From the IMG/VR virus record IMGVR_UViG_3300030099_006533: a DNA stretch of 64,000 bases, one strand, 5' to 3'. This DNA comes from a virus. The notes below the pieces were generated by a model, which did not search any database, was not told the DNA's origin, and was given only the letters and a program-made list of their open reading frames with translations. Position 1 is the stretch's first letter. Every line of letters starts with the position of its first letter. This document shows positions 19,641 through 43,531 of this stretch, one piece after another. Position numbers and translations under genes: made by a program.

Positions 19641-19886
19641 GTGCCTGCCGCGGCATTCCATAAGGGAGACTTAGTGGCAGTCAAGACGCCGCACACTAGA
19701 GCAGAAAAGACATACAAAGTAGGGCTGGTGGTCAAGCCTCCCAGCCACAAAAGTAGACTATATGAAATTTTGTGGTTGACAAGTAACAATTCGTATGTTA
19801 CTGTGTATACAGAGGGTAGGAATCTGGTGTTGTTGTCAGCCCCAGAGGGCAATGAAGCTCGCTTCCGTCGCTGGCGCGCCACATAA
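19641..19886 (+). CDS. SH3/KOW-like small protein
   Basis: FHKGDLVAVK...VGLVV. Confidence 0.65.
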   Translation: MPAAAFHKGDLVAVKTPHTRAEKTYKVGLVVKPPSHKSRLYEILWLTSNNSYVTVYTEGRNLVLLSAPEGNEARFRRWRAT

Positions 19887-19903
19887 TAACAACGAGAGAA
19901 TCT

Positions 19904-20308
19904 ATGAGCAACAAAGTACCACTTGATGATGACGAAAGGATGCTGATTATTCAGTTTCTGAGTGTTATGCACAGTTGGTTTCAAGAAGAGAAGAAGGTTG
20001 CTGAACAAAATCTTGCAAACCTTTCACTACAAGAAGGCATCATCAAACTGCTGTTTGCGCGATTGGCCCGGACCAGTATTGTCAAGGATCCTGTCTTTAC
20101 TGAGGCTGGTAAAAATGTCTTTGCTGCTGAGGATGGGAATACAGACAACTGGTTTGATAACTTAAACAGGGAACGCCACCTGCTGAACGCCATGGATGAG
20201 GCTTTCACAGATACAGAGTTAGAACAAGAGACGGCGCCCATAGTGGACGATGGGTCTAACGTGATAGACTTTACAGCCAGAAAACTACATCGAGAAGAGG
20301 ATGAATAA
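19904..20308 (+). CDS. hypothetical protein
   Basis: Tiling ORF. Confidence 0.65.
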   Translation: MSNKVPLDDDERMLIIQFLSVMHSWFQEEKKVAEQNLANLSLQEGIIKLLFARLARTSIVKDPVFTEAGKNVFAAEDGNTDNWFDNLNRERHLLNAMDEAFTDTELEQETAPIVDDGSNVIDFTARKLHREEDE

Positions 20309-20540
20309 AATGTTTAAAGTTGGGGATCTTGTAGAGCATTCTCGTGGCCCGGGCCACCGTGGTATTATAACAGAGATCATTTCCACGCGCGCCTCGGGCC
20401 AGCCGCGAATCGTTAAGGTGTGTTGGTTTCCGCCAACCGGATTAGCAGTCAAAGCATCTAACCCTTGGCAGCTTAATAAGTTTGAGGGCGAAAAAAAAGT
20501 TTCATGTCTTGATCTTGTAAAGCTCTCCGCAGCACAATGA
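20301..20540 (+). CDS. SH3/KOW-like small protein
   Basis: FKVGDLVEH...GIITEI...VKVCW. Confidence 0.7.
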   Translation: MNKMFKVGDLVEHSRGPGHRGIITEIISTRASGQPRIVKVCWFPPTGLAVKASNPWQLNKFEGEKKVSCLDLVKLSAAQ

Positions 20541-20866
20541 AACCAAACTTTCCACCCCGGGGCTTGACAAAGGGCTCACTAGTTCGCATTAAGACGCGCT
20601 ATGTAATCCCCCCAGATGTGTTTAGTGCTCCAGACAATCCTGAAGATGATACTGAGATCGGTATTGTTGTTGACAATCCTCGTTTAGAAACAAGATTCAA
20701 AACAGATTTTTTAGACCACTGCGTCAGAAACGAGTCTCATCTTGAGGTGGAGCCCTCTCGGTATGTTTATATGATAAAAGTACATTGGCCTGCTTCCAAT
20801 GCCACAAGTTGGCACAATGTACAAGATTTAGACGTTTTGAGTATTTCGCGGGTACTTACTAAATGA
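20537..20866 (+). CDS. SH3/KOW-like small protein
   Basis: LTKGSLVRIK...IGIVVD...IKVHW...DLDVLS. Confidence 0.65.
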   Translation: MKPNFPPRGLTKGSLVRIKTRYVIPPDVFSAPDNPEDDTEIGIVVDNPRLETRFKTDFLDHCVRNESHLEVEPSRYVYMIKVHWPASNATSWHNVQDLDVLSISRVLTK

Positions 20867-20867
20867 G

Positions 20868-21185
20868 GTGCCCAAACAAGTTTCAGATACCCAGTATGTC
20901 CTTTCCGCTCCTCTGCGCCGCGGCGCTCTTGTACGTTGGATTGTTGATTACAGATTACTTGCCGCAGATCACAAGGGTAATATCTGGCCCCACAACCCAA
21001 AGTACGAGTATGGTATAGTGACAGAAGTGTCTAAGGTTGATCCATCGCACCTGATTGTGCTTAGCACAGGGTCCGGCTACTATTTCACTGCTCAACTTGG
21101 AGTAGACGAGATTGAGATTATTTCAAACGGCGCCCCCCGAGTTCTTGCCCCCACGGCGCAGGAGATACGAAAGTATGAAAAGTAA
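20868..21185 (+). CDS. SH3/KOW-like small protein
   Basis: LRRGALVRWI...YGIVTEV...EIEIIS. Confidence 0.65.
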   Translation: MPKQVSDTQYVLSAPLRRGALVRWIVDYRLLAADHKGNIWPHNPKYEYGIVTEVSKVDPSHLIVLSTGSGYYFTAQLGVDEIEIISNGAPRVLAPTAQEIRKYEK

Positions 21186-21273
21186 ACTTCGCGACGCCGG
21201 GCGGCGCCGCGGGGGTCGGGGGTTGAAAAAGTTCGCGCCAAAATTTTCCTCTTTTGGCAGATAGGTAGACAAC

Positions 21274-21489
21274 GTGAATGCAGAATATGACCAGTTTGAA
21301 GTGGGTGACTTGGTATCAGTCAGCGACCCATACTATCTTAACAATAAGCAGTTTGTTGTTGCCGATGTACCGTACATCACTGTTGGCATTATCTTGAGAA
21401 AGCAAAGAATAGAGAGCTTCTATACGGTATACGCAAACAACGAGCACTATCACAACGTACATGCATCTTGGATTACTAAACTAACATGA
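21274..21489 (+). CDS. SH3/KOW-like small protein
   Basis: FEVGDLVSVS...VGIIL. Confidence 0.65.
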   Translation: MNAEYDQFEVGDLVSVSDPYYLNNKQFVVADVPYITVGIILRKQRIESFYTVYANNEHYHNVHASWITKLT

Positions 21490-21662
21490 GCGATTCTTAC
21501 TACTACAAAATCATCTACCGAGAAGGCACTACTCAAAAGACTACTCTTATCTCGGCTTCATACTCGATTAAACGGATAAAGAAAATTCTCGCGGAAGTAC
21601 ATCCGAGTTGGGATATCATCCGTGTGCAAGCAACAGGAAAGAAAGTAGAACGTGTAGAATAA
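21486..21662 (+). CDS. 58-aa hypothetical protein
   Basis: Read manually: MSDSYYYKII...VERVE*; ATGA overlap. Confidence 0.55.
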   Translation: MSDSYYYKIIYREGTTQKTTLISASYSIKRIKKILAEVHPSWDIIRVQATGKKVERVE

Positions 21663-21699: not shown

Positions 21700-22041
21700 A
21701 TGAGGGCCGATGAGAAAAGAGAAAAAATCCGCAAAGGTATGCTGGTGCGACCGGTTGTCTTCTTCTCAGACTGGCTGGGTGTGGTGCTAACCGAACCGTA
21801 CGAGTACGAGCCTACTGAGGAAGATGAGGATATGATGTCATATATCCCCTCGATCATGAACCCTAAAGCTAACTATTGGGAGGACGTATACGTTGTTGAT
21901 GTAATGTGGTTTAGTGAAGCGGGGGCAACACAGGAGTTCGTGGACTTCCTTGAGATTGTGTCCCCACCCCAGGATTGTTATGACGATCCAGATTATATTG
22001 CAAAAAGATGGGATTTTGACTGGACAGATGAGGATGAATGA
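21700..22041 (+). CDS. SH3/KOW-like acidic small protein
   Basis: IRKGMLVRPV...LGVVL...VDVMWF...LEIVS. Confidence 0.65.
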   Translation: MRADEKREKIRKGMLVRPVVFFSDWLGVVLTEPYEYEPTEEDEDMMSYIPSIMNPKANYWEDVYVVDVMWFSEAGATQEFVDFLEIVSPPQDCYDDPDYIAKRWDFDWTDEDE

Positions 22042-22066
22042 GATATACTATGAATGTAACTGAGAG

Positions 22067-22715: not shown

Positions 22716-22765
22716 CAACTTTTTTTCATTTGGGCCTTGACAAACGAACCTGGAGCCATTATATT
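22712..22765 (+). promoter_or_regulatory. multi-box promoter (degenerate middle box)
   Basis: TTGACA 22712, TTTTCA 22723, TTGACA 22737, N17, TATATT 22760. Confidence 0.7.
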
Positions 22766-22782
22766 ATAGGTGGAGGTTAGGA

Positions 22783-23025
22783 ATGACAGACAGACCATCG
22801 AATGTTTCAGGCTCTTCGTCTACCGAAGAGGTCGATGTGCTCACTGCCGAGCTTCGCGCCATGAACTTCGCGAAGAACCTGATGTATAGCACCCAGTTCC
22901 ACGAGATTCTACCATTGATTGAGGAGATTCAGCAGTGCGACGACGATGACCCTAGGCTGTTGCTTATCAATGCTGTGTTGAATGAGGCCCTCGAAACTTT
23001 CCCCCTTGCAGATTGCGACGTATAA
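22783..23025 (+). CDS. hypothetical protein
   Basis: GGAGG RBS, downstream of promoter. Confidence 0.65.
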   Translation: MTDRPSNVSGSSSTEEVDVLTAELRAMNFAKNLMYSTQFHEILPLIEEIQQCDDDDPRLLLINAVLNEALETFPLADCDV

Positions 23026-23301
23026 ATGAAGACTGTTATTGTTATTGACACCGAAGATCCTACCGGCATGGAGAGCACCCGGCTCATCGTGGATCACCTG
23101 ATGAAGACCCACCATAAGATTCCTTATGATAGAAACGATCCGTTTGGCTCTAAGATCCAGGCGATCAAAACTATCCGTGAGTATGTCAGATTCTGCAAGG
23201 AACACTGGCCCGATGACTGGCAGGACGCTATCGGTTCCCTCCGCGCGTCGAAGTCTTATGTTGATTCGCTCACCAATGCTAAGTTCTCAACGAGACTTTG
23301 A
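23026..23301 (+). CDS. hypothetical protein with possible L7/L12 CTD-like motif
   Basis: KIQAIKTIREY...LRASKSYVD. Confidence 0.5.
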   Translation: MKTVIVIDTEDPTGMESTRLIVDHLMKTHHKIPYDRNDPFGSKIQAIKTIREYVRFCKEHWPDDWQDAIGSLRASKSYVDSLTNAKFSTRL

Positions 23302-23528
23302 TGGGAACGCACAGACAAAAGGTAAACTTTGAGATGGGCGAGCTGGTTAGAGTGGTCGATAACACTTTTCAAGAGGGAATGTCGCCCACCCGCGTGGGGG
23401 TTATTACCGGAGTCGGTCAAGACGATTCGGGTTTCCACACAGGGGTGTATGAAGTTCTCTTCGCATCTAGCGAGGGCACACTAAAGATGCAGTTCTGGCA
23501 CAAGTTTTTGGAGAAGGTTGTAGTATGA
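23298..23528 (+). CDS. SH3/KOW-like small protein
   Basis: FEMGELVRVV...VGVIT...YEVLF...FLEKV. Confidence 0.65.
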   Translation: MMGTHRQKVNFEMGELVRVVDNTFQEGMSPTRVGVITGVGQDDSGFHTGVYEVLFASSEGTLKMQFWHKFLEKVVV

Positions 23529-23848
23529 GACAAGTCATCCTTGCATTTATTATCGGATTCACAGTCACCGCATGCACCGAGCGTGCAGTTCGCAATGGCG
23601 GTACTTCCGCACTGGAGCGGCGATGTGAGCCGGTGCTTGCCGAGATTCTACAGATTCAGGATCTGAGGCTGCTCAATAATCACGCCCTGAACCACAAGAG
23701 GGCTGAGGGTGTTCTGACTCCTGACGATGTTGAGTCTTGGAAGGCTGTGGAAGAGGAGCTTGGTTCGCGTGTGAACCATCTTTATAATGTCGCTGACCGT
23801 CGCAAGTGCTTTGATGGTGTCGAGCAAATGTTCTTGACATTCTCTTGA
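23525..23848 (+). CDS. putative lipoprotein
   Basis: Signal-like N-terminus ending VTAC. Confidence 0.6.
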   Translation: MRQVILAFIIGFTVTACTERAVRNGGTSALERRCEPVLAEILQIQDLRLLNNHALNHKRAEGVLTPDDVESWKAVEEELGSRVNHLYNVADRRKCFDGVEQMFLTFS

Positions 23849-23888
23849 CAAAAAAGTTCTTGCAATCCAAAATCCAGCGTGGTATATT
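23834..23888 (+). promoter_or_regulatory. triple-box promoter
   Basis: TTGACA 23834, TTGACA 23845, TTGCAA 23860, N17, TATATT 23883. Confidence 0.85.
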
Positions 23889-23911
23889 ATAGAAGATGAA
23901 AGGAGAGCCCC

Positions 23912-24244
23912 ATGGCCGATTGGTATGTAAGTCAGGTAAATGTTCGCGAAGGCAACCCCGCAGAGGGAGAGCCCGCGCTAGTTGTCGATGAGAAGGTGCT
24001 AACCATCAAGGCACCGTATCGAGCAGCGCAGCGTTCTTATAACGTATTCCGCTCACTGGGCACGCCCAACATCGGGCTTTATCCGTGGGAGACTAACAAG
24101 AAGTCTTATGCTGCATCACTCAAGGCACAGAAGCGCCGCAAGTCTAAGAAGCTGACGAAGGCTGATCTGGCCCCCGCTCTCATGGAGCTTGCAAAGGAGG
24201 ACGCAGCGCGTGAAACCGCAGAGACAGAAACTCAAGAGGGGTGA
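23912..24244 (+). CDS. hypothetical protein
   Basis: AAGGAG RBS after promoter. Confidence 0.7.
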   Translation: MADWYVSQVNVREGNPAEGEPALVVDEKVLTIKAPYRAAQRSYNVFRSLGTPNIGLYPWETNKKSYAASLKAQKRRKSKKLTKADLAPALMELAKEDAARETAETETQEG

Positions 24245-24410
24245 TCTAGTGACCCTCAAACGTGTGGGCGCACCAAACTATAGAGGTATCGTATTGGAAA
24301 CCGATGAATCTCCCATCTGGCCCAGCGCACGGATCATCTTCTATACAGATTCTTATAGCAAAGAAGTAACAGTAAATCAAAACCTATATGGACTAAGGAA
24401 ACTAACATGA
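24189..24410 (+). CDS. SH3/KOW-like small protein
   Basis: LKRGDLVTLK...RGIVLE; exact start uncertain. Confidence 0.55.
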   Translation: MQRRTQRVKPQRQKLKRGDLVTLKRVGAPNYRGIVLETDESPIWPSARIIFYTDSYSKEVTVNQNLYGLRKLT

Positions 24411-24607
24411 TGTTTGAAGTAGGACAAGCCGTAACCATCGACAGCAACGATTACATGAACTCACTCCCCGGCGTCGTCCTTGACGTTAGTGCGTCAAGTG
24501 GTGGCGTCGAGACTATGTATACTGTGGATGTTGAAGACCACGGAACCCAGTATTTCTATGGTCACGACCTCATCAACGCAGAGGAGTCTATCAGTGTTTT
24601 CCGATAG
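24407..24607 (+). CDS. SH3/KOW-like small protein
   Basis: FEVGQAVTI...GVVLDV...YTVDV. Confidence 0.65.
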   Translation: MMFEVGQAVTIDSNDYMNSLPGVVLDVSASSGGVETMYTVDVEDHGTQYFYGHDLINAEESISVFR

Positions 24608-24806
24608 TCAACTAAACGTATTGAGTGGGCTACTTGCCCGACGTCAAGACCCCGCAGTTTCAAGCTCTGACTATGATTCACTTATGAGTGTGGTTCAGTC
24701 CCTTCAAGCCATGCGCTCACGCGACTCCATCGAGGATGCAAGGCGGCATGCCACCGATGGGCCCGACAACATTCCCCAGCCCTTCAACGATCCACTAGAT
24801 TGGTAA
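24594..24806 (+). CDS. hypothetical protein
   Basis: GTG start after GAGGAG, overlapping the previous stop. Confidence 0.5.
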   Translation: MFSDSQLNVLSGLLARRQDPAVSSSDYDSLMSVVQSLQAMRSRDSIEDARRHATDGPDNIPQPFNDPLDW

Positions 24807-24810
24807 TATA

Positions 24811-25122
24811 ATGATGCACAGATATAAGCGAGTAGTATGCAAGGACGGATTCTCAGTTAGCATTCAGGCTAGTGAGACTAACTATTCTGACCCGAGAGAG
24901 ACACATGCCGAAAGGTATACTGCTGTCGAGCTAGGGTTCCCGAGCCACAGGGAAGAACTAATCCTAGAGTGGGCCGAAGATGCTGACCGACCTACTGAGA
25001 CGGTCTACGGATACGTTCCTGTCACGACCGTGAATCTAGTAATCGCAAAGCATGGTGGCATTATTGCGGGGGAGACACCGCCCGGAGTTGTACCACTTTA
25101 CTGTGAAGGATACGAAAAGTAA
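24811..25122 (+). CDS. conserved phage hypothetical protein
   Basis: CKDGFSVSIQAS..NYSDPR...VELGFPS. Confidence 0.7.
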   Translation: MMHRYKRVVCKDGFSVSIQASETNYSDPRETHAERYTAVELGFPSHREELILEWAEDADRPTETVYGYVPVTTVNLVIAKHGGIIAGETPPGVVPLYCEGYEK

Positions 25123-25135
25123 ACTTCTAGCTTTT

Positions 25136-25221
25136 GGCCGAGTGGTGGAATAGGCAGACACGACGGATTCAAAATCCGTTGCTCATTGAGCGTGCGGGTT
25201 CAAGTCCCGCCTCGGCTACCA
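25136..25221 (+). tRNA. tRNA-Leu(CAA)
   Basis: GGCCGAG/CTCGGCT acceptor stem, ACGGA-TT-CAA-AA-TCCGT, long variable arm, GGTTCAAG, encoded CCA. Confidence 0.95.
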
Positions 25222-25237
25222 ACTTTGTAGGAACACA

Positions 25238-25429
25238 ATGATTATATTGTTTATGCTTTTGATGGGTTCGGAATATCCTGAACAGCCTTCCCCTTGTGTG
25301 ATTGATGTGTGCGAAGAAAAGACATGTACAGTCGAGACACCAGAGGGCTGGGTTGATGTACCTAGGCGAGATCATTACGAAGAAGGCATGAGAATCGAGT
25401 GTCCCTTTTGGTTGATTGATCCAACGTAG
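25238..25429 (+). CDS. small Cys-containing exported protein
   Basis: Hydrophobic N-terminus, four Cys. Confidence 0.55.
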   Translation: MIILFMLLMGSEYPEQPSPCVIDVCEEKTCTVETPEGWVDVPRRDHYEEGMRIECPFWLIDPT

Positions 25430-25455
25430 CCTAGTTACCATAGGAGGGCACAATC

Positions 25456-25635
25456 ATGTCAATCATTCCACTGGATAAGCTAGAGCAACTAAGAAGAGAA
25501 CAAGGACAGGAGAACACTGTTGAAGAACGACCAGCCCTTTACGCACCCGAGCCCCCGATGGAGTTTGTTTCCGGCTCCGCTGATGATGATGACGCACCAG
25601 AGCGGGGCGTCACGATTATAGACTTTACGGTATAG
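25456..25635 (+). CDS. 59-aa acidic hypothetical protein
   Basis: Read manually; AGGAGG RBS; CTAGTTA motif upstream. Confidence 0.6.
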   Translation: MSIIPLDKLEQLRREQGQENTVEERPALYAPEPPMEFVSGSADDDDAPERGVTIIDFTV

Positions 25636-25644
25636 TGAACGCTC

Positions 25645-25857
25645 ATGTTGTTTGATCCACAAGTTGGTGATTTAGTTAGGCCGCGTACTTGGTGCGAGCA
25701 AGGAAGAAATATAGGCATCGTTGTGTCAACTGGTGAGGGTGTGTTTGAAGATCAGATAAAGGTATTTTGGGACAAACCAGTATGGTATGACCCCGACGAT
25801 GGGTACTCGGTTGAGTATGGCCCAGAAATGGAGATAATCAGTGCAGCGCGGAGATAA
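25645..25857 (+). CDS. SH3/KOW-like small protein
   Basis: PQVGDLVRP...IGIVV...IKVFW...MEIIS. Confidence 0.7.
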   Translation: MLFDPQVGDLVRPRTWCEQGRNIGIVVSTGEGVFEDQIKVFWDKPVWYDPDDGYSVEYGPEMEIISAARR

Positions 25858-26011
25858 AGTAAGGGCAACATGGACTGATGGTCTTGTCATAGTTGGTAAG
25901 TATGATCGAATCGAGCGCGGATATGTAATCTTGCTAGATGATTCAGGCAAGCGTATTGTATGCAACCCTGACGTCGTTGAGTTTGAACTCGTGAACATCA
26001 AAGAGGAGTAA
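25841..26011 (+). CDS. 56-aa SH3-like small protein
   Basis: Read manually: MQRGDKVRATW...; GTG start overlaps the previous gene end. Confidence 0.55.
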   Translation: MQRGDKVRATWTDGLVIVGKYDRIERGYVILLDDSGKRIVCNPDVVEFELVNIKEE

Positions 26012-26014
26012 TAT

Positions 26015-26272
26015 ATGTCAGCAACAACGCTCATTATCATCGCTTGCTTGATTGCTTATGTTATTGGATATTTCGTTGGCGCTTACGTTCAGCGAATGAA
26101 GTATGGTATGATCGACTGGGTGTGCCTACGATGGAACAAGGATAGCCTAGGCTACCGGCCAGTCGCAGATGGACAGGTGCTACACAGGGGACAAAGGGTG
26201 ATGTTGGCGCTTCCGATCCCTACAGATGATTTGCCCGAAGAAGGCATGCCATGGGGAGATAGCCGTTCTTGA
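26015..26272 (+). CDS. membrane-anchored hypothetical protein
   Basis: N-terminal TM; stop inside TTGACA. Confidence 0.65.
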   Translation: MSATTLIIIACLIAYVIGYFVGAYVQRMKYGMIDWVCLRWNKDSLGYRPVADGQVLHRGQRVMLALPIPTDDLPEEGMPWGDSRS

Positions 26273-26323
26273 CATTTCCTTGACAAAATAGTTGTTGACA
26301 ACCTGACTCGCATGGGCTATATT
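26269..26323 (+). promoter_or_regulatory. triple-box promoter
   Basis: TTGACA 26269, 26280, 26295; N17; TATATT 26318. Confidence 0.88.
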
Positions 26324-26325
26324 AT

Positions 26326-26661
26326 ATGCATAACAAGGAGCGAAATATGTCCGACTTTCTAAACATCCGTGTAACTGAATCAGAGCTTGATCTGATCATG
26401 CTACTTCTTGAGCAAGCTGGCTCTATGGAGGATTCCAATGGGCAGCCAGCCTTTGAGTTGCTTCACGACCTGATGGAGCAATCTGGAAACAGTGAAGAGT
26501 GGGAGACTACTGATCTTGAGGGCCGCACCTTCACCGTGGCCGAGGATGACTTTATCAAGATGGGCGAAAACGCCCGTGAGCAAGCTAAACTAAACAGTAA
26601 ACTAATGATGGGCACTCAAAGTGGTGTCGATGTGTGGACCCTTCACGGTCTGGAGGACTAA
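26326..26661 (+). CDS. acidic hypothetical protein
   Basis: ORF after promoter; true start probably 26347 after AAGGAG. Confidence 0.65.
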   Translation: MHNKERNMSDFLNIRVTESELDLIMLLLEQAGSMEDSNGQPAFELLHDLMEQSGNSEEWETTDLEGRTFTVAEDDFIKMGENAREQAKLNSKLMMGTQSGVDVWTLHGLED

Positions 26662-26855
26662 TGGCAGAATGTATTGAATGTGGCGCAGAGTATAGTGATC
26701 GGCGCTTGGCTCTAGGGTATCGTACTTGTTTGGACTGTGGTGATGCTTCTGCTCGCTCTACCATCCGAGCTAGGACCGCGGCGAACCTGCGGGCAATGGC
26801 CCCGAATCATTACACAGGTGACGTCCGTGAGGTACTTGACAAGCGGCCTGACTAA
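26661..26855 (+). CDS. Zn-ribbon small protein
   Basis: CIECG...GYRTCLDCG. Confidence 0.7.
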   Translation: MAECIECGAEYSDRRLALGYRTCLDCGDASARSTIRARTAANLRAMAPNHYTGDVREVLDKRPD

Positions 26856-26913
26856 CGCTTGACATTCTCTTTACAACTTTCCCCTTGATCTTCTTCTCTG
26901 CATGGGGTATATT
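26836..26913 (+). promoter_or_regulatory. five-box promoter
   Basis: TTGACA 26836, CTGACT 26848, TTGACA 26859, TTTACA 26870, TTGATC 26885, N17, TATATT 26908. Confidence 0.88.
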
Positions 26914-26941
26914 ATAGAAGTAATCAGCAAGGAGTATAGCG

Positions 26942-27295
26942 ATGATGAGAGTGTGCGTCCACTGTGAGAGCGACTTCGATGACCAGTCCCGTGCAAAGCG
27001 TGAAGCTGGGGGTCGAATCAACGAGTGTCCTGATTGTGTGGAAGAACTCGGTACAGAGACAACAGTAAAGTATCTAGGGTTGCAGGCCGGCGATGGCAAG
27101 AGCAACGCTATCTCTATCGTGGCCTTTGAGTCAGACGAGGATCGGGATTCGTACTCACGCGCATGGAAGGCTGTGACTGGATTCCACAAGGGTAAGTCCT
27201 GTCATCTGTCAGGCTCAAACACTACCATCGGCAACCGTCCAATGCGCCACGTTGCTTACAACGCAGGCAACGCAAACCACAAGGGGAAGGCATGA
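26942..27295 (+). CDS. Zn-ribbon hypothetical protein
   Basis: CVHC...ECPDC; AAGGAG RBS. Confidence 0.7.
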   Translation: MMRVCVHCESDFDDQSRAKREAGGRINECPDCVEELGTETTVKYLGLQAGDGKSNAISIVAFESDEDRDSYSRAWKAVTGFHKGKSCHLSGSNTTIGNRPMRHVAYNAGNANHKGKA

Positions 27296-27468
27296 GAGTT
27301 GGTGATTTAGTAAAAGTAAAGTTGAAGCGCCGCGAAGACACCCTAGGTCTTGTGGTCGAGGTCAAGCAAGATGATAGCAACCGCATCATCATTGTCCAGC
27401 CAGTAAACCCCGGCTTGCAGGTCTATGCCAACCCGGTCGATGTGGAGGTGATCAGTGAAAGTAGGTGA
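27292..27468 (+). CDS. 58-aa MRVGDLV SH3/KOW-like protein
   Basis: Read manually: MRVGDLVKVK...LGLVVEV...VEVISESR*. Confidence 0.65.
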   Translation: MRVGDLVKVKLKRREDTLGLVVEVKQDDSNRIIIVQPVNPGLQVYANPVDVEVISESR

Positions 27469-27646
27469 TATTGTTAGACATTTTCTTACCGAGCAGATCG
27501 GTATTGTGCTAGAGGTACGCAAGGGTACTAGGGTTGCACTTTCCGCAGCAAACGTACTTTGGACCACGCAAGGCGATTCGCTTTTCGGCCCCGGCCACAA
27601 AGAATGGTGCTGGCAAAAAAGTTTGGATCTCTTGACAAATGCTTGA
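27455..27646 (+). CDS. MKVGDIV SH3/KOW-like protein
   Basis: MKVGDIVRH...IGIVLEV...NVLW. Confidence 0.7.
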   Translation: MKVGDIVRHFLTEQIGIVLEVRKGTRVALSAANVLWTTQGDSLFGPGHKEWCWQKSLDLLTNA

Positions 27647-27686
27647 CAAAAGAATCCTTGACCCCAGCACTGGGCAGTGATATATT
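27632..27686 (+). promoter_or_regulatory. triple-box promoter
   Basis: TTGACA 27632, 27643; TTGACC 27658; N17; TATATT 27681. Confidence 0.88.
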
Positions 27687-27709
27687 AGTAGAGTACAAAG
27701 GAGATACGC

Positions 27710-27946
27710 ATGGATTATGATAGAGAGTTTCAGGTATACACTGACAACCATCAGTGTGAGGACTTTGAGGTGCCCTACATTGGTTCGCCTGCCACGCTGG
27801 TCATCGCTGCCCGGGATCTGCTGGCATCGAAGGACTATGACACCAGTCACCGCGAGTACCTTAGTCAGTTTGGCAACCGCGTGCTTGTGATGCAGCGCAC
27901 CGCAGATCAGAGCCCCGGCTGGTGGCGTGTGACGGAGGTACACTAA
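27710..27946 (+). CDS. hypothetical protein
   Basis: AAAGGAG RBS. Confidence 0.65.
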   Translation: MDYDREFQVYTDNHQCEDFEVPYIGSPATLVIAARDLLASKDYDTSHREYLSQFGNRVLVMQRTADQSPGWWRVTEVH

Positions 27947-28242
27947 TGCAGTTCTGGCATGCATCAATCACCCATGAAGGCGAACACGCAGTCACCACCC
28001 ACTTGACAGAAGAAGGGGCCTTGCGGGCCGCTATCTTTGACGTTATGGAGTTCATGGGTCTTGAAGATGGTGAGGAACGCATGAACCGCGATCAAGACGT
28101 TGATCTAGTCACTGACCATAAGGTGATTATGGAGGCAAGTCTTGATCAGTTGCGGCGATGGTGGCCCACATGGTGCGAGGAAACATGGGATAACCCATAT
28201 AGCTATGACGTACAAATCACAACGAGTGACCTGCAAGCATGA
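27946..28242 (+). CDS. hypothetical protein
   Basis: GGAGG RBS, TAATG overlap. Confidence 0.65.
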   Translation: MQFWHASITHEGEHAVTTHLTEEGALRAAIFDVMEFMGLEDGEERMNRDQDVDLVTDHKVIMEASLDQLRRWWPTWCEETWDNPYSYDVQITTSDLQA

Positions 28243-28547
28243 GTATGGAACTACCAGTAAAAGTAACTTGGCCCCCGTGCCTCGCAAACATCGGATTCAA
28301 GCGATTCGCGATCAGCGGTGGAACTTGGATCGAAGTACCACTTGATACCACTCGCGACGAACTAGGGCTTTACATGGTTTGGGATCGCCCGAAGATTGAC
28401 ACAGTTGAACGAATGACATGGGAGGTCGAGGGCAGCAAGGGCAACGTGTATAAAGTAACCTTGACTGGTGATCACTGGTCATGTACTTGCCCCGGCTTCA
28501 GGTGGCGTAACTCATGCAAGCATATCGAGGCGAAAAAAGCGGGATGA
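28239..28547 (+). CDS. SWIM zinc-finger protein
   Basis: GSKGNVYKV...WSCTCPGF...CKHI. Confidence 0.85.
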   Translation: MSMELPVKVTWPPCLANIGFKRFAISGGTWIEVPLDTTRDELGLYMVWDRPKIDTVERMTWEVEGSKGNVYKVTLTGDHWSCTCPGFRWRNSCKHIEAKKAG

Positions 28548-28756
28548 AAGTTATTGATTTACACGGTGTTAGACACAAAGATATTTATGGAATGATCGAA
28601 GGTCCGTGTGTGGACGGCGAATATCCGTTCATTGTTGTCACGGGCAAATCTGAAACAATGAAAAGGATCGTGACGCAGATTGTTGGAACATTCGGTCTAC
28701 ACACCAAAGAGAAGCTAGGCAACAGCGGGAGGCTTGTAATCTGTGAAAGTCGGTGA
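28544..28756 (+). CDS. stand-alone Smr-like domain protein
   Basis: IDLHG...VVTGKS..MKRIV...NSGRLVI. Confidence 0.6.
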   Translation: MKVIDLHGVRHKDIYGMIEGPCVDGEYPFIVVTGKSETMKRIVTQIVGTFGLHTKEKLGNSGRLVICESR

Positions 28757-28946
28757 TCTAGTCAAGATGCCGGGAACCATGCATCGCGACGATGCCGAGG
28801 TGATAGGCGTGGTTACTCGCACCAGACCCGATGGGATCAATCGAGGCACGCCCCACCTTCATCGCGTTCAGATTTACTGGATTCAAGACAATGAGTATTC
28901 ATGGGAGCCCGCGAAGTGGTTGGAGGTGATCAGTGAAAGTCGGTGA
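28743..28946 (+). CDS. MKVGDLV SH3/KOW-like protein
   Basis: MKVGDLVK...IGVVT...VQIYW...LEVISESR*. Confidence 0.75.
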   Translation: MKVGDLVKMPGTMHRDDAEVIGVVTRTRPDGINRGTPHLHRVQIYWIQDNEYSWEPAKWLEVISESR

Positions 28947-37254: not shown

Positions 37255-37258
37255 AGTA

Positions 37259-37639
37259 ATGTTTGAGAAAGGCCAGATGTATATCCTCCGAGGCATGAAG
37301 AAGAATAAGCGATACAACTCACTCACAGATATGGATGGGAGACTATACGTTGCAGACTCACAGGGCTGGCACTCACAAAGCTGCCCGACCTTCACCGATG
37401 GTGCCCTGTTCCTGTGCCTTGAGGACTCGCCTGATTTCGATTCTGAGGCCTTCCAGAGGACTTTGGACCCCACCCTAACGGAGTGGTCGGCTCTCAGCAA
37501 GACAGCGCGTGCTATGCGCTCCTACGAGCAGCACAGAGAGGTATCCTTCCTTGCCCCGAACGGCAAGCGTGTGAGGATGATGGTAAAGGGAAACAAGACG
37601 AAGTTCAAGAAGGTCACAAGAAGGACAAAGGTAAAGTAG
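37259..37639 (+). CDS. hypothetical protein
   Basis: MFEKGQMY start; tiling. Confidence 0.6.
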   Translation: MFEKGQMYILRGMKKNKRYNSLTDMDGRLYVADSQGWHSQSCPTFTDGALFLCLEDSPDFDSEAFQRTLDPTLTEWSALSKTARAMRSYEQHREVSFLAPNGKRVRMMVKGNKTKFKKVTRRTKVK

Positions 37640-37640
37640 C

Positions 37641-37880
37641 ATGAACGCTGGTGACTTCATCGAGGACACATATACTTCTTTCGACGGTCAGATTGTAGCA
37701 GTAACGCGAGGTGTGATCACAGAAGTCATCCGAGACTATGTAAAATATTATTGCTCACAGATACGTTTCGCAGAGCACGATAGCTCACTAGATGGTATGC
37801 TGGGCACAATGGTGATGAGACATAAGAGAAACCTCACAGTATTGTCTCAGCGTGGTGGCAAAGTGGTAGAAAGTGGGTGA
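37641..37880 (+). CDS. SH3-like small protein
   Basis: MNAGDFIED...RGVITEV. Confidence 0.55.
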   Translation: MNAGDFIEDTYTSFDGQIVAVTRGVITEVIRDYVKYYCSQIRFAEHDSSLDGMLGTMVMRHKRNLTVLSQRGGKVVESG

Positions 37881-38152
37881 GAGTGGTAGAAGGTAGTTTT
37901 TGCTAAAGTGTTATAAAGAGATATGATACAATAGAAATAATAAAGGAGTGTGAGTAAAGGTAGTAAACGAGGGGTGTATCAAGTATACTAGTGAGCTTTA
38001 TTTGTCAAGCTGTGAGTTTATTTGCTACACCTGTTACATGTGAGTGTGACACATAAAACACCGTGAGCCCGTAAGCTACCGTAAACACTCAAGTTTTTCA
38101 ACAGCGTGAGTCACAGCGTGAGTATAAATGTGACAAGAGGAGTAGATGTAAC

Positions 38153-39999: not shown

Positions 40000-40335
40000 G
40001 TGAGTGGTTCCTACGATGCCTATGATTGGGATGCCGCGGCCGAAGAGGCCGCCACCCGGTATGCTTATAAAGTGGGAGACCTTGTTCGCTTTATTCCTAG
40101 TCGCAAAATATGGGATTACTACGATCCATGGGGATATCGTATAAACACTCCCAGTGAACATATGGATTCGCTTGGGATAGTTGTTGAGCGGTATCGAACT
40201 TATGGAAGCTATTCACAAATCTACTATCGTATCAGATGGATTGATATGGGTAGTGTTAGTATGTCTAACGAAAAACACGAGGATTTAATGCTTGTATCTG
40301 AGGCTGCTCGGCCGAGCGGATCCTGTGATGAATAA
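40000..40335 (+). CDS. SH3/KOW-like small protein
   Basis: YKVGDLVRF...LGIVVE...YRIRW...LMLVS. Confidence 0.7.
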   Translation: MSGSYDAYDWDAAAEEAATRYAYKVGDLVRFIPSRKIWDYYDPWGYRINTPSEHMDSLGIVVERYRTYGSYSQIYYRIRWIDMGSVSMSNEKHEDLMLVSEAARPSGSCDE

Positions 40336-40383
40336 CCAGTTTAAGCATCTATTTATAGCAGAAGGCTATTGCAATAAGATGTC

Positions 40384-40611
40384 ATGGAAAACACACCGAA
40401 TTATTACAAACATTATCAGATCGGTGACCTCGTACAGAGTACGGTTATTGGTTTGCAAGATTTTGAGTTCAATTCGTACGGCCGCTTAGGAATTGTTATT
40501 AGTCTTGTGCCCAATAAAGATGCTGCGAAAGTGTGGTGGGTGGGCGAAACAGAACCCAAAACGGTTTTATTCCAAACTTTTAAATTAATTTCTAGAGGAA
40601 AGAAGTTGTAA
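40384..40611 (+). CDS. SH3/KOW-like small protein
   Basis: YQIGDLVQS...LGIVIS...AKVWW...FKLIS. Confidence 0.7.
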   Translation: MENTPNYYKHYQIGDLVQSTVIGLQDFEFNSYGRLGIVISLVPNKDAAKVWWVGETEPKTVLFQTFKLISRGKKL

Positions 40612-40632
40612 AAAAGCTAATTATTCATTACC

Positions 40633-40911
40633 ATGAGTGGTGAAAGTGAATACAAATTAAAAGTCGGTGATCTATTAATAGACACAGAAACCAATAACTC
40701 AGGAATCCTCGTGCAAAAGCATAGAGTTTTAAGTACTTCTGGCCGATTTATTAATGATAGATGGTACTGGGCGTGGAGAATTAGATGGGCGCGCACTCCA
40801 GAAACTAAAAATATTGCCGAGTGGGCAGATAATTTTGATAATACTACTGCAGAATCAATTATTGTCAATAATATTAAAGAAGGTAAGGTGAAACATTTCA
40901 CAAATTCTTGA
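40633..40911 (+). CDS. SH3/KOW-like small protein
   Basis: LKVGDLLID...SGILV...WRIRW. Confidence 0.7.
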   Translation: MSGESEYKLKVGDLLIDTETNNSGILVQKHRVLSTSGRFINDRWYWAWRIRWARTPETKNIAEWADNFDNTTAESIIVNNIKEGKVKHFTNS

Positions 40912-40918
40912 AAATAAT

Positions 40919-41323
40919 ATGCACCTCATATCAACTCACATCTGCAAAGCTAGCAATTTGGGAGTTCATGGTAATTTATTTGGTGGTACGATGTTGGCGT
41001 GGCTTGATGAGGCCGGCGCGGCGTACGCTTGTCAATTTTGTGATACCCCAAGAATGGTCACAGTTAAAATGTCTGAGACAAGGTTCCAAAAACCCGTGAG
41101 AACCGGACATTTAATTAAAATTTATGGCAAAATTTGTTATATTGGTACCTCGTCTGTTACAGTTTCATTGGAAGCTAGAAGACATTCGGTGTATAATGGT
41201 ACTCAAAGAACTGTTTGTACGACTGAAATCACATTTGTTCGGGTCGACGGCGACGGTGAGCCCATCCCAGTGGGTGAAAAAGTACAAAATAAGTTTCTTA
41301 GCCTTCAAGGAGATAATCAATGA
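40919..41323 (+). CDS. hotdog-fold acyl-CoA thioesterase (YciA-like)
   Basis: GNLFGGTMLAWLDEAG, VTV, F.KPV..G, GTSSV, TFVRVD. Confidence 0.9.
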   Translation: MHLISTHICKASNLGVHGNLFGGTMLAWLDEAGAAYACQFCDTPRMVTVKMSETRFQKPVRTGHLIKIYGKICYIGTSSVTVSLEARRHSVYNGTQRTVCTTEITFVRVDGDGEPIPVGEKVQNKFLSLQGDNQ

Positions 41324-41532
41324 GTAATGAAAACGACAGAAAAATGATGACACAAGAGGCATTTCAGATGTTTCTTGGAGAATTACAAGAAAGAATGGCA
41401 GAATTTCAAGTGGATGCTGCAAACACGGCCGAATTTATGGAAGAAGCTCTAAAAATGGCACAAGAGCGGCTAGCCGAAAAAGGCCCAGACGAATATTTTT
41501 CAACACCCCAACCAGATTTTGATGATGAATAG
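41320..41532 (+). CDS. small acidic helical protein
   Basis: AAGGAG RBS. Confidence 0.65.
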   Translation: MSNENDRKMMTQEAFQMFLGELQERMAEFQVDAANTAEFMEEALKMAQERLAEKGPDEYFSTPQPDFDDE

Positions 41533-41544
41533 CTAAAAAAAAGC

Positions 41545-41573
41545 TTGACATGTGCTTCATAACAAGATATTAT
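41545..41573 (+). promoter_or_regulatory. single sigma70-type promoter
   Basis: TTGACA-N17-TATTAT. Confidence 0.7.
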
Positions 41574-41592
41574 AATAGTATAGGAGCACAAA

Positions 41593-41826
41593 ATGACTAT
41601 TTTTTCTAGCTTTATGACCATTCTTACTACAATTGTAGGCGCAGCGGCTGTTTTTGTAGCCTCTTTAGTATTTGGTTCCACATTATTTTCTCTAATTGTA
41701 GCGATTTTTGTTTCAATTCCAACAATTGCTACAATTGTTGGCACCTTATTGGTCTTGCCGCTAGAGTTGGCAGATGAAGCATACCGAAAAGAAAATATCC
41801 GCCAGATTAATAGCTATAAGCCTTAA
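41593..41826 (+). CDS. hydrophobic membrane protein
   Basis: Two TM segments; AGGAG RBS. Confidence 0.65.
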   Translation: MTIFSSFMTILTTIVGAAAVFVASLVFGSTLFSLIVAIFVSIPTIATIVGTLLVLPLELADEAYRKENIRQINSYKP

Positions 41827-41865
41827 ATAACACTTTCTTTCTGCAAGCTTTCCTAGTTAATATAG

Positions 41866-42204
41866 GTGCGACTCACAATGGGTAGGCTAGTGACGAGAGG
41901 AAAAGGCAAAGTGTCAGAAGATCCTAATGAAAAAGACTTAAAAATGCTAGAAGAAATGCTCAAAGAAGCGTTAGGAAAAGCAAAAACATCACAAGAAACG
42001 TCTTATGACAAATATTTTTTAGTCAGCGACGAAGATATGTGGTTTTATAATCCAACAAGCAGACAAATGGTCAGAGTTCCAGGCAGAAGTAGCCTGTTAG
42101 TTTCAGATCTTACACCTGACGATGATGGAAAAGTGCTTTGTTGGACCGATTTTGGTTACGCGTTGATCCCCGAAGACCTTATTGCACCTTTAGGATACAA
42201 TTAA
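41866..42204 (+). CDS. hypothetical protein
   Basis: ORF after CTAGTTA motif. Confidence 0.65.
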   Translation: MRLTMGRLVTRGKGKVSEDPNEKDLKMLEEMLKEALGKAKTSQETSYDKYFLVSDEDMWFYNPTSRQMVRVPGRSSLLVSDLTPDDDGKVLCWTDFGYALIPEDLIAPLGYN

Positions 42205-42399
42205 ATGTTTTTTACCTTTTTCGAAAGTCCATTTTGGCGCGGCGCACTTTGGATTGGCTCTTTTTTGGCTCTTTTCGGCCTTTTTGGATACAAATTTACA
42301 GTGGTTACTGCTCTTGCTGTAATTGCAATGCGACAAAGACGTGGCGAAGCCCTGTTTTTTTAAAAATTAAGTGATACTTAGTCCCGAGAGGGTCTTGTC

Positions 42400-42906
42400 G
42401 TGTCAAATAATGTTAGTCTGCAGTGCTATCCAGACAATGAAACCTATTTTTATCGTAAAAGCGATAAAGTTGAGACAATTACAGCCGATATTATCTCTTT
42501 AGCCCATTATATGGCTCAAATCATGTATGATCATGAAGAAAATGGCGTTTCTGGCCCGCATTTTGGCTTAAATAAGCGGATTGTTGTCTTTGATTGTACT
42601 GATGACTACAGCAACACTGTTTATTTGATAAATCCCGTTATATTATGGCAATCTAGAGAAACTTCTCAGTGTTTAGAGACTTGTTTAGGATATCCGGGCT
42701 TATCTTTGCCTGTTAACAGGCCAAATAAAATAAAAATTGAAGCTTTAGACATAAATGGCAAGAAAATTGGCTTTGAAGCCACAGGAAAGTATGCTAGAAT
42801 AGTACATCAGCAGATTGACCTACTTGATGGTATTCCATTTACGCAAAGAGTGTCAAGACAGATAAGACGTCATCTAATAAGAAAATGGACAAAGCAAAAT
42901 GAATAG
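42400..42906 (+). CDS. peptide deformylase-like protein, catalytically degenerate
   Basis: PDF layout (G.NKRIVVFD, LINPVI, RP.KIKIEALD.NG, DLLDGI.F), but EGCLS becomes ETCLG and HExxH becomes QQIDL. Confidence 0.8.
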   Translation: MSNNVSLQCYPDNETYFYRKSDKVETITADIISLAHYMAQIMYDHEENGVSGPHFGLNKRIVVFDCTDDYSNTVYLINPVILWQSRETSQCLETCLGYPGLSLPVNRPNKIKIEALDINGKKIGFEATGKYARIVHQQIDLLDGIPFTQRVSRQIRRHLIRKWTKQNE

Positions 42907-43105
42907 CGAACTTGATACTTGGGAAGAATGGATGGGTTATAGAGTACATTACGTTCTTGACGGAGTTGCATATGTGCAAGACTCGACTTCATATGGCGTT
43001 TCTTATGGCAGAGCATCACAAGTAATGAAAGATGTCCTGTTGCAAGGCTTTTGTGCTTGGATTGTTAGAATGAAGCCTGACGAAGTGGAGGAAATACCAT
43101 TTTGA
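42899..43105 (+). CDS. hypothetical protein (paralog of next gene)
   Basis: Shares GxCAW motif with 43102..43311. Confidence 0.6.
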   Translation: MNSELDTWEEWMGYRVHYVLDGVAYVQDSTSYGVSYGRASQVMKDVLLQGFCAWIVRMKPDEVEEIPF

Positions 43106-43311
43106 AGGGCCCACAAATTGATATATTCAAAGATAGAATAAGTGTTTTTATACATTTTGCAGACAAACAGGCGGAGCCAATATGCATAGGTACCTATTAT
43201 TGTTATGAAAATGCATATAAAGAACTAATTAGTAATTTAAGCGAAGGTTTGTGTGCTTGGATGATATTTGATGGAAGAGAAACCAAGTTTTGGAGAGTCG
43301 AAAAAGATTAA
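43102..43311 (+). CDS. hypothetical protein
   Basis: GLCAWM motif. Confidence 0.55.
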   Translation: MKGPQIDIFKDRISVFIHFADKQAEPICIGTYYCYENAYKELISNLSEGLCAWMIFDGRETKFWRVEKD

Positions 43312-43531
43312 CCCGGGCGATCTAGTTCAGTGGCGCCACTGGGATAATGGATGGGTAGCCATTGTGGGTGTGGTAACATCTGTAGGCACCTCTAAAATTG
43401 GCGGCCGCCGGATTATAATGGCTAAAGTCACAGCCACGAGTTCTGGTACTGACAACATCCTTGTTGGCCAAGAGTTAGAATTAAACCCTTTAAGTTTAAA
43501 AATTCTTTCAACAAACATCATAAGTGAATAA
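43268..43531 (+). CDS. SH3/KOW-like small protein
   Basis: INPGDLVQW...VGVVT...LKILS; start uncertain. Confidence 0.6.
   Translation: MMEEKPSFGESKKINPGDLVQWRHWDNGWVAIVGVVTSVGTSKIGGRRIIMAKVTATSSGTDNILVGQELELNPLSLKILSTNIISE

What the first reader, a model, noticed from the sequence alone, without database searches (positions are those of the whole stretch)
19641..43531. Large expansion (more than 20 copies) of KVGDLV SH3/KOW-like mini-proteins
Seen: about 25 ORFs of 50-113 aa share the pattern x-(K/E/Q)-x-G-D-L-V...G-(I/V/L)-(V/I)...(V/I)-x-(V/I)-x-W...L-E-V-I-S (e.g. 20301, 21274, 25645, 27292, 27455, 28743, 28933, 29340, 30640, 31846, 40000, 40384, 40633, 43268), with highly variable loops. 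Established: this resembles the five-strand SH3/KOW/Tudor barrel, a protein- and RNA-binding module (NusG, uL24). Inference: a diversified scaffold library acting as anti-defence binders or as decoys of transcription-translation coupling, expressed largely from the multi-box promoters.
Basis: partly seen in the sequence, partly recalled or inferred. Interest (0 to 1): 0.75.

Follow-up and report, generated by a model that had tools for sequence, protein, structure and literature searches.

The report
SH3-like mini-protein family in marine phage
An abundant, uncultured marine T4-like phage carries about 20 diverged copies of one tiny, uncatalogued barrel-shaped protein among its early genes. 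The genes are real and kept by selection, and they probably each bind a different host molecule, but their function is untested.

Summary
An HMM built inside the window converges on 20 plus-strand ORFs of 50-111 aa between 19641 and 43531. Nineteen pass a leave-one-out test, and the same 19 score E <= 5.5e-6 against a profile built only from other phages. Five more ORFs are marginal. No minus-strand ORF matches.

Two members fold with confidence (pLDDT 86 and 82) as five-strand SH3-like barrels. The best structural matches are Spt5/NusG KOW, PsaE, R67 DHFR, Tudor and PWWP domains, and none stands out. No member reaches any Pfam, PHROG or NCBIfam model, and no cultured phage holds a detectable homologue.

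The family is large in uncultured marine T4-like myophages: 989 copies in 97 related loci, and 12-18 matches in each of five 191-236 kb genomes. Orthologues are under purifying selection (pN/pS 0.27), equally in loops and core. The paralogues are old, differ widely in pI and GC3, and change order between relatives. A third of neighbouring copies overlap by exactly 14 nt.

Eleven of the 20 lie behind the sigma70-like multi-box promoters. Function is inferred only: paralogue-specific binders used in early host takeover or counter-defence. A NusG decoy role is unlikely. This scan has already noted the same family on other DNA.

The parts
19641..19886 (+). family member, 81 aa, pI 10.2
   Evidence: leave-one-out E 6.9e-6; external profile E 4.7e-10
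20301..20540 (+). family member, 79 aa
20537..20866 (+). family member, 109 aa, with a long insert between strands 2 and 3
20868..21185 (+). family member, 105 aa
   Evidence: 40% identical orthologue in L046
21274..21489 (+). family member, 71 aa
23298..23528 (+). family member, 76 aa; the real start is probably the ATG at 23301
   Evidence: homologues P0002, P0003, P0043, P0045, P0057, some from Tara
24189..24410 (+). family member, 73 aa as listed; start uncertain because it overlaps the end of 23912..24244
25645..25857 (+). family member, 70 aa, pI 4.3
27292..27468 (+). family member, 58 aa, ends EVISESR; its last 14 nt are the first 14 nt of the next gene
   Evidence: 81% identical orthologue in L041
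27455..27646 (+). family member, 63 aa, GTG start inside the tail of 27292
   Evidence: hits of 40% identity or more in 18 loci
28743..28946 (+). family member, 67 aa, the reference copy; folded
   Evidence: pLDDT 86, five strands; hits of 40% identity or more in 41 loci
28933..29085 (+). family member, 50 aa, the smallest copy, pI 4.1
   Evidence: an RNA-library contig lies on 28978-29144
29340..29528 (+). family member, 62 aa
   Evidence: 92% identical orthologue in L004 and L047
30640..30894 (+). family member, 84 aa, GC3 0.65
31846..32103 (+). family member, 85 aa
   Evidence: RNA-library contigs lie on 31645-31882 and 31980-32147
32183..32386 (+). marginal member, 67 aa; has KVGDLL but lacks the Trp
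   Evidence: leave-one-out E 0.16; external profile E 0.023
40000..40335 (+). family member, 111 aa, with an N-terminal extension
   Evidence: leave-one-out E 4.7e-7; external profile E 7e-14
40384..40611 (+). family member, 75 aa
   Evidence: homologue P0046 seen on 30 contigs
40633..40911 (+). family member, 92 aa, GC3 0.28
43268..43531 (+). family member, 87 aa, divergent (no Trp); folded
   Evidence: pLDDT 81.7, five strands; SH3-like matches only
21700..22041 (+). marginal candidate, 113 aa
   Evidence: external profile E 0.013
24407..24607 (+). marginal candidate, 66 aa
   Evidence: external profile E 0.042
22737..35951 (+). zone of about 13 sigma70-like promoters with tandem TTGACA-type boxes; 11 family genes lie behind them
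   Evidence: repeat families D1, D2 and D6; promoter-like sites 38 found against 15.8 expected

Best explanation
The stretch is the early, hyperplastic region of an uncultured, abundant marine T4-like myophage of about 190 kb. It holds 19-20 old, strongly diverged paralogues of one uncatalogued family of 50-111 aa proteins. Each is a single SH3-like (KOW-type) five-strand barrel.

Shown here:
- the family is real;
- the fold is predicted with confidence;
- the genes are under purifying selection;
- the family has hundreds of copies in related phages;
- copies are often chained by a 14-nt overlap, in which L-E-V-I-S-E-S-R-stop of one gene supplies the ribosome-binding site GGAGGTGAT and the GTG-K-V-G-D start of the next;
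- gene order changes between relatives.

Inferred:
- they are made early by host RNA polymerase from sigma70-type promoters, or by read-through;
- the conserved residues (G-D-L-V, G-I-V, W, L-E-V-I) only build the barrel, while the paralogue-specific loops, which orthologues conserve, give each copy its own ligand;
- they act as small stoichiometric binders of host proteins or nucleic acids during takeover or counter-defence, and phages swap them as cassettes to suit their hosts.
For: - Family.
- Fold: pLDDT 86 and 81.7 with five strands; only SH3-like barrels are matched (best Z 7.3, Spt5 KOW). Weak sequence hits go to the same fold class: uL24, eS4, MIB1, PsaE, L19; HAS-barrel, Cul7, MIB_HERC2, DUF1918.
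- Real genes: 49 orthologue pairs give pN/pS 0.27 and none exceeds 1. Core 0.26 and loops 0.27.
- Old paralogues: only one pair in the window finds itself by BLAST, while orthologues elsewhere are 50-92% identical.
- Spread: 548 plus-strand and 0 minus-strand hits in 40 IMG/VR loci; 989 copies in 97 loci, plus the window's 20; 12-18 matches per genome in five genomes of 191-236 kb, four of them rated complete. Those genomes have a Gp23 capsid gene and no psbA.
- Early setting: multi-box sigma70-like promoters.
- Coupling: 303 of 911 neighbouring family pairs overlap by exactly 14 nt (window cases).
- Shuffling between conserved flanks.
- Varied properties: pI 4.1-10.5; GC3 0.28-0.74.
- The stretch occurs nearly unchanged in marine metagenome runs of several studies, 2014-2020.
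Against: - No binding partner, expression timing or phenotype is known.
- The host is unknown.
- Nine of the 20 genes are not behind a multi-box promoter.
- Contigs from RNA libraries touch only a few of the genes and cannot prove transcription.
- Selection in the loops is no weaker and no more positive than in the core, so there is no arms-race signature of the kind often seen in counter-defence genes.
- No fusion to a domain of known function was found that could hint at a target.
Confidence: 0.5

Rival explanations
1. They are nucleic-acid binders: small KOW- or LSm-type regulators of RNA or DNA. The models are the predicted KOW N-terminal domain of T4 MotB and the LSm-like early proteins GoF, MotB.1 and Frd.2.
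For: KOW domains of Spt5 and NusG are among the best structural matches. The profile weakly matches the KOW hairpin of uL24 and eS4 (E 0.016-0.03). Four members are basic, pI 9.0-10.5. T4 has early proteins of this fold class that bind DNA or affect RNA stability (PMC7827196, PMC12152347).
Against: The pI runs from 4.1 to 10.5 and most members are neutral or acidic. No conserved basic position lies outside the core. hhalign finds no likeness to T4 MotB, MotB.1 or GoF, probability under 1%.
Confidence: 0.2
2. They are decoys of the NusG KOW domain that break transcription-translation coupling or Rho loading.
For: The fold class is shared with NusG KOW.
Against: No member matches the Pfam KOW model, even at E <= 1 for ten members or E <= 0.05 for 94. 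NusG ranks below PsaE, R67 DHFR and others. One mimicked surface does not need 20 paralogues with unrelated loops and charges.
Confidence: 0.05
3. They are mainly selfish cassettes. The dual-coding junction and the promoter repeats spread them by recombination, and they bring the phage little benefit.
For: A third of neighbouring copies share the same 14-nt junction. Order is shuffled between relatives. Metagenome contigs show joints at promoters and gene starts. A comparable ORFan block was lost from cyanophage S-PM2 in culture, and that loss brought a fitness gain (PMC4503421).
Against: Purifying selection on the protein sequence (pN/pS 0.27, none above 1), in the loops too. Individual paralogues are kept at 50-92% identity across diverged phages.
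Confidence: 0.12

Closest known systems
SH3-like small beta-barrels of the KOW type (NusG C-terminal domain, Spt5 KOW repeats, uL24; Pfam PF00467)
   Same: Five-strand barrel with an x-G-D-x-V first strand followed by a G-x-V second strand. These are the best structural matches (Z 7.3, 6.9 and 6.0), and there is a weak profile match to the uL24 KOW hairpin.
   Different: No member reaches the Pfam KOW model. The short KOW hairpin loop is replaced by loops of very different length. The proteins stand alone and are not part of a transcription factor or ribosomal protein.
Mind bomb / HERC2 / CUL7-type SH3 repeats (Pfam SH3_15 PF18346, MIB_HERC2 PF06701, Cul7 PF11515)
   Same: The family profile's two strongest matches in 1.84 billion proteins are long multi-repeat proteins, and three of its long matches (P0086, P0089, P0099) carry SH3_15 repeats. 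HERC2 and the CUL7 CPH domain are top Foldseek matches.
   Different: Single members give only sub-threshold hits: 2 of 94 each for MIB_HERC2 and Cul7. Those domains are eukaryotic E3-ligase modules; these proteins are stand-alone and viral.
Variable early genes in hyperplastic regions of T4-type phages, shuffled at PeSL promoter/stem-loop cassettes (PMC2839356, PMC4122927)
   Same: T4-like phage. A block of small accessory genes lies between conserved genes. Repeated early-promoter elements are present, and order and content change between relatives.
   Different: One protein family supplies about 20 of the small genes here. Terminator-like stem-loops are not enriched (18 found, 18.4 expected). 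A second kind of joint, the 14-nt dual-coding gene overlap, links the cassettes.
T4 early proteins of the same fold class: MotB N-terminal KOW-like domain (PMC7827196); GoF, MotB.1 and Frd.2 with LSm-like folds (PMC12152347)
   Same: Small early proteins of a T4-type phage from a non-essential region, with a predicted SH3-class barrel and no homologues outside phages.
   Different: No detectable sequence relation (hhalign probability under 1%). The T4 proteins have extra domains or helices and occur once per genome.

Membership tests
SH3-like small beta-barrel (fold class) | Five antiparallel strands forming a small barrel of about 60 residues | tested here: met
   AlphaFold2 models of 28743 (pLDDT 86) and 43268 (pLDDT 81.7) have five strands. 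Foldseek and VIA-align return only SH3-like barrels. These are predictions, not solved structures.
KOW motif (Pfam PF00467) | Sequence match to the KOW model at or above its cut-off | tested here: not met
   KOW is not among the hits of 10 members at E <= 1 or of 94 members at E <= 0.05. There is only a weak profile match to the uL24 and eS4 KOW regions (E 0.016-0.03).
Mind bomb SH3 repeat (Pfam SH3_15, PF18346) | Sequence match of the members to the SH3_15 model | tested here: inconclusive
   No member matches SH3_15 at E <= 0.05. The family profile does find multi-repeat SH3_15 proteins at E 1e-28 summed over 14 repeats. A distant relation is possible; membership is not shown.
T4 MotB / MotB.1 / GoF families | Detectable homology to the T4 proteins | tested here: not met
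   hhalign of A1 against each T4 protein gives probability 0.1-0.4%. The T4 side was a single sequence, so sensitivity was limited.
PHROGs / NCBIfam catalogued families | Any member matches a model | tested here: not met
   0 of 20 members match at E <= 0.001 in PHROGs or at E <= 0.01 in NCBIfam. Only scattered hits of E 0.0035-0.1 appeared earlier.
PeSL-type hyperplastic region of T4-like phages | Repeated early promoter plus stem-loop terminator units flank variable genes, and relatives differ by gains, losses or swaps at these units | tested here: inconclusive
   Repeated early-type promoters are present, and gene order is shuffled between conserved flanks in L003, L004, L005, L042 and L046. 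Terminator-like stem-loops are not enriched. Joints at promoters in metagenome contigs have short sides and may be assembly artefacts.
Tudor / PWWP / chromo 'royal family' readers | Aromatic cage that binds methylated lysine or arginine | not tested
   Only one aromatic residue (Trp of strand 3) is widely conserved. Cage geometry was not examined.

The most novel reading that the evidence does not exclude
The arrays are a natural plug-and-play library of binders. One minimal SH3-like scaffold carries many loop sets, each aimed at a different host protein or defence component. Marine T4-like phages exchange the copies as ready-to-express cassettes, because the last codons of each gene carry the ribosome site and start of the next. 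The gene set of a phage would then record which host factors it has to neutralise.
Probability: 0.3. Interest if true: 0.8.

Novelty: new variant of a known kind. Interest (0 to 1): 0.55.

Why it matters
These phages recur almost unchanged in marine metagenomes of several studies and years. About one ORF in five or six in their early regions belongs to this one unnamed family. If the proteins are target-specific binders, the family would explain a sizeable share of the 'dark' early genes of an abundant ocean phage group. It would also offer a very small, naturally diversified binding scaffold. The family needs a profile model so that annotation pipelines stop calling a thousand genes unrelated hypothetical proteins.

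Tried and rejected
- Cultured relatives: blastn and tblastn of the region, of the 1410-aa and 804-aa proteins and of member 28743 against 50,697 phage records found nothing useful. Only GroEL and the capsid protein of a relative match cultured phages, at 46% identity or less.
- Fusions: a search for longer fused forms found none (weak evidence). The long proteins hit by the profile are repeat arrays with no catalytic domain recognised.
- Homodimer of 28743: complex prediction gave no verdict (score 0.00). This is not evidence either way.
- ESM Atlas: only unnamed viral clusters; the nearest named ones (SH3-C_UBE2O, DsrB, R67 DHFR) are leads only.
- RNA-library contigs cover only parts of 28933, 29340, 29515 and 31846 and cannot prove transcription. 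Parts without cover say nothing.
- Literature: no paper holds 'MKVGDLV', and none found describes this family.
- Programmed frameshifting at the 14-nt junction was considered and set aside. There is no slippery heptamer, and the junction carries a strong ribosome site upstream of a GTG or ATG start.
Full report
**Setting.** The window codes almost entirely on the plus strand. It carries six tRNA genes and a tmRNA, plus a GroEL-type chaperonin, a trypsin-like peptidase, a peptide deformylase, a thioesterase, a phosphomannomutase and an AAA_5 / DUF2201 pair. No whole genome is held. Proteins that the window encodes sit on a contig of 190,331 bases. Relatives in IMG/VR are 191-236 kb. Four are rated 100% complete and one has terminal repeats. 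All five have a Gp23-type capsid gene and none has psbA. Their capsid protein is at most 46% identical to that of any cultured phage. Region-level DNA and protein searches of 50,697 phage records found nothing. This is an uncultured, non-cyanophage, marine T4-like myophage. The stretch recurs almost unchanged (95% or more of sampled words) in marine metagenome runs of several studies from 2014, and in large part (60-90% of the words) in runs of 2015 to 2020.

- The motif [VIL]G[DE][LIVMF][VIL] near the N-terminus occurs in 14 plus-strand ORFs of the stretch, in one elsewhere, and in none of 306 minus-strand ORFs.
- A profile built from those 14 and iterated within the window converges on 20 ORFs.
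- When each is left out of the model in turn, 19 still score better than any non-member (E 9e-9 to 9e-3 among 561 ORFs). ORF 32183 does not.
- A profile made only from 877 distinct copies in other loci finds the same 19 at E <= 5.5e-6. It leaves 1841, 21700, 50930, 32183 and 24407 as marginal, at E 0.005-0.04. Those external copies were picked with the window-derived HMM, so this check is not fully independent.
- The likeness covers the whole protein: G-D-L-V, then G-(I/V/L)-(V/I), then V-x-(V/I)-x-W, then L-E-V-I-S.

**What the proteins are.** No member reaches a Pfam, PHROG or NCBIfam model. The scattered weak hits all go to SH3-like barrels: HAS-barrel, PriA 3'BD, SH3-C_UBE2O, Cul7, MIB_HERC2, DUF1918, Tudor and PWWP. 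A profile search of PDB sequences gives the same picture, with uL24 and eS4 KOW regions, MIB1, PsaE, HERC2, L19 and L21e at E 0.016 or weaker.

AlphaFold2 with a 94-row alignment folds 28743 at mean pLDDT 86 into five strands. The divergent copy 43268 folds at 81.7, also into five strands. Foldseek and VIA-align return only SH3-like barrels:
- for 28743: Spt5 and NusG KOW, the Hpy99I SH3 domain, PsaE, R67 DHFR, CPH/HERC2, PWWP, Tudor, CAP-Gly and NdhS;
- for 43268: CAP-Gly, chromo, Tudor, PWWP and CarD/CdnL N-terminal domains.

The best Z is 7.3 and no family stands clear of the rest. The nearest predicted viral structures are unnamed small proteins of uncultured viruses, and the ESM Atlas neighbours are unnamed viral clusters.

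**How wide the family is.** The profile finds 303 representative clusters at E <= 0.001 among 1.84 billion proteins. Most are 55-90 aa and start M-K-V-G-D-L-V. A few are tandem two-domain forms, and some are long repeat proteins. Three of those (P0086, P0089, P0099) carry Mind bomb-type SH3_15 repeats; others show no catalytic domain.

In 40 IMG/VR loci fetched around relatives of 28743, the window profile hits 548 plus-strand ORFs and no minus-strand ORF, at 7-26 per locus of 20 kb or less. With 57 metagenome loci added, the count outside the window is 989, out of 4455 plus-strand ORFs when the window and its 20 copies are included. Five relatives of 191-236 kb have 12-18 matches each, mostly within one 20-60 kb zone. 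Arrays also occur on a contig binned with a Rhodospirillaceae MAG and inside a WOR-3 MAG chromosome.

**Evolution.** Paralogues within the window are too far apart for BLAST, except 28743 with 29340. Several have orthologues elsewhere at 50-92% identity: 28743 in 41 loci, 29340 in 27 and 27455 in 18. The duplications are therefore older than the split of these phages.

For 49 gapless orthologue pairs of 70-99.9% identity, pooled pN/pS is 0.27 and the median dN/dS is 0.22, with none above 1. Other ORFs of the same loci give 0.20. Split by profile position, core strands give 0.26 and loops 0.27. The loops that differ so much between paralogues are thus conserved within each orthologue line. The pairs are not all independent, and only gapless pairs were used.

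The pI runs from 4.1 to 10.5 and GC3 from 0.28 to 0.74. The GC3 spread suggests that copies came in from phages of different base composition rather than by local duplication alone; this is an inference. Between conserved flanks (22479 and 24811 on the left, the AAA_5 and DUF2201 genes on the right) the order of family and non-family genes differs in L003, L004, L005, L042 and L046.

**Gene arrangement and expression signals.** Between 22.7 and 36 kb there are about 13 copies of an intergenic element. It has two upstream TTGACA-type boxes, a TTGA(T/C) -35 box, a 17-nt spacer and a TATAAT-like -10 box (promoter-like sites 38 found against 15.8 expected). Eleven family genes lie behind these promoters: 23298, 24189, 25645, 27292, 27455, 28743, 28933, 29340, 30640, 31846 and 32183. 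The five at 19.6-21.5 kb directly follow a nucleotidyltransferase-like gene. The four at 40-43.5 kb lie in AT-rich DNA with ordinary promoter-like sites. Terminator-like hairpins are not enriched.

Four family genes (27455, 28743, 28933, 29340) start 14 nt before the upstream gene ends. The sequence CTG-GAG-GTG-ATC-AGT-GAA-AGT-NGG-TGA encodes L-E-V-I-S-E-S-R-stop. It also contains the ribosome site GGAGGTGAT and, in another frame, GTG-AAA-GTN-GGT-GAT for M-K-V-G-D. The E-S-R tail is therefore set by the next gene's start, and it also ends the non-family ORFs 28514..28756 and 29201..29353. Across all loci, 303 of 911 neighbouring family pairs overlap by exactly 14 nt, and 299 of 1009 copies end in E-S-R.

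Contigs from two metatranscriptome libraries match parts of 28933, 29340/29515 and 31846 at 99% or more. Contigs cannot prove transcription.

**What it most likely does.** The residues shared by all copies build the barrel. What distinguishes the copies is the loops, and orthologues keep them. The proteins have no signal peptide or extra domain, vary widely in charge, sit in the promoter-rich early region of a T4-like phage, and are exchanged as units.

The best-supported reading is a set of small, paralogue-specific binders of host proteins or nucleic acids, made early for takeover or counter-defence and swapped between phages to match hosts. My confidence is about 0.5. The binding itself is inference.

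The rivals are:
- KOW- or LSm-like nucleic-acid regulators, as proposed for T4 MotB and GoF (PMC7827196, PMC12152347; no homology by hhalign), at 0.2;
- largely selfish cassettes, at 0.12;
- a NusG decoy, at 0.05.

A homodimer prediction gave no verdict.

**Comparison and novelty.** The phenomenon, variable small early genes in hyperplastic regions of T4-type phages shuffled at repeated regulatory cassettes, is known (PMC2839356, PMC4122927). So is the fold. The new points are these: one uncatalogued SH3-like family supplies about 20 genes per genome; it has about a thousand copies in the loci sampled here; and it is chained by a dual-coding junction. I found no paper on it.

Earlier notes of this scan describe the same kind of array on other DNA (e1-5835700, e1-5703101) and the junction on this window (e1-5814780). 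They gave me the PeSL lead and agree with what I measured here, but they are not independent evidence.

Noticed in passing
window 22737-35951: About 13 copies of a roughly 75-nt intergenic element with two upstream TTGACA/TTTACA boxes, a TTGA(T/C) -35 box, a 17-nt spacer and a TATAAT-like -10 box, all on the plus strand. They look like early promoters for host sigma70 polymerase.
   Followed up: partly
window 27443-27474, 28731-28762, 28921-28952, 29328-29359, 29503-29534: A 14-nt dual-coding junction. E-V-I-S-E-S-R-stop of one gene holds the ribosome site and the GTG/ATG-K-V-G-D start of the next. It also gives an E-S-R tail to the non-family ORFs 28514..28756 and 29201..29353. ORF 29515..29736 starts M-K-V-G-E but does not match the family profile.
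   Followed up: yes
window 26856-32400: DNA metagenome contigs (runs X11, X13) show alternative joints at promoter copies: 30385 to 31142, 31192 back to 26856, 32400 back to 30359, and loose ends at 26889 that continue as the promoter at 35896. There are also joints at gene starts (29195 to 28744; loose ends at 27459 and 29340). These may be co-existing strains with cassettes rearranged, but the sides are short and repeat-induced assembly artefacts are possible.
   Followed up: partly
window 49288-51803: Five ORFs begin with nearly the same 32 nt (ATGAAACT..TTGAAAA.TGGCG, M-K-L-L-x-E-N-W). This is a second small family sharing an N-terminal leader (repeat D5).
   Followed up: no
window 30000-38000 against 40000-44000: G+C is 56-60% at 30-38 kb and 39% at 40-44 kb, in a window that averages about 46%. 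Family members span GC3 0.28-0.74. This suggests a mosaic origin.
   Followed up: partly
window 34602-37254: An AAA_5 (MoxR-like) ATPase and a DUF2201 metallopeptidase/VWA-like protein, each behind its own multi-box promoter. They are 58-73% identical in relatives and form the right-hand conserved flank of the shuffled zone.
   Followed up: no
window 60183-60514, 25136-25221, 62149-63979: A phage-borne tmRNA with tag A-N-N-N-D-Y-F-E-Q-R-L-A-A, a lone tRNA-Leu(CAA) inside the early region, and a cluster of five tRNAs.
   Followed up: no
L099 (PAXN01000034.1) and L100 (CP070664.1, 2138650-2148859): Arrays of 11 or more and 7 family genes, with the same M-K-V-G-D-L-V starts and E-S-R tails. One is on a contig binned with a Rhodospirillaceae MAG and the other inside a WOR-3 MAG chromosome. 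They could be a prophage, a mis-binned phage contig or a chimera.
   Followed up: partly
P0086 (1319 aa), P0087 (2269 aa), P0099 (538 aa): Long proteins of unknown origin made of up to 14 repeats that match the family profile. P0086 and P0099 carry Pfam SH3_15 (Mind bomb) repeats; P0087 does not.
   Followed up: partly
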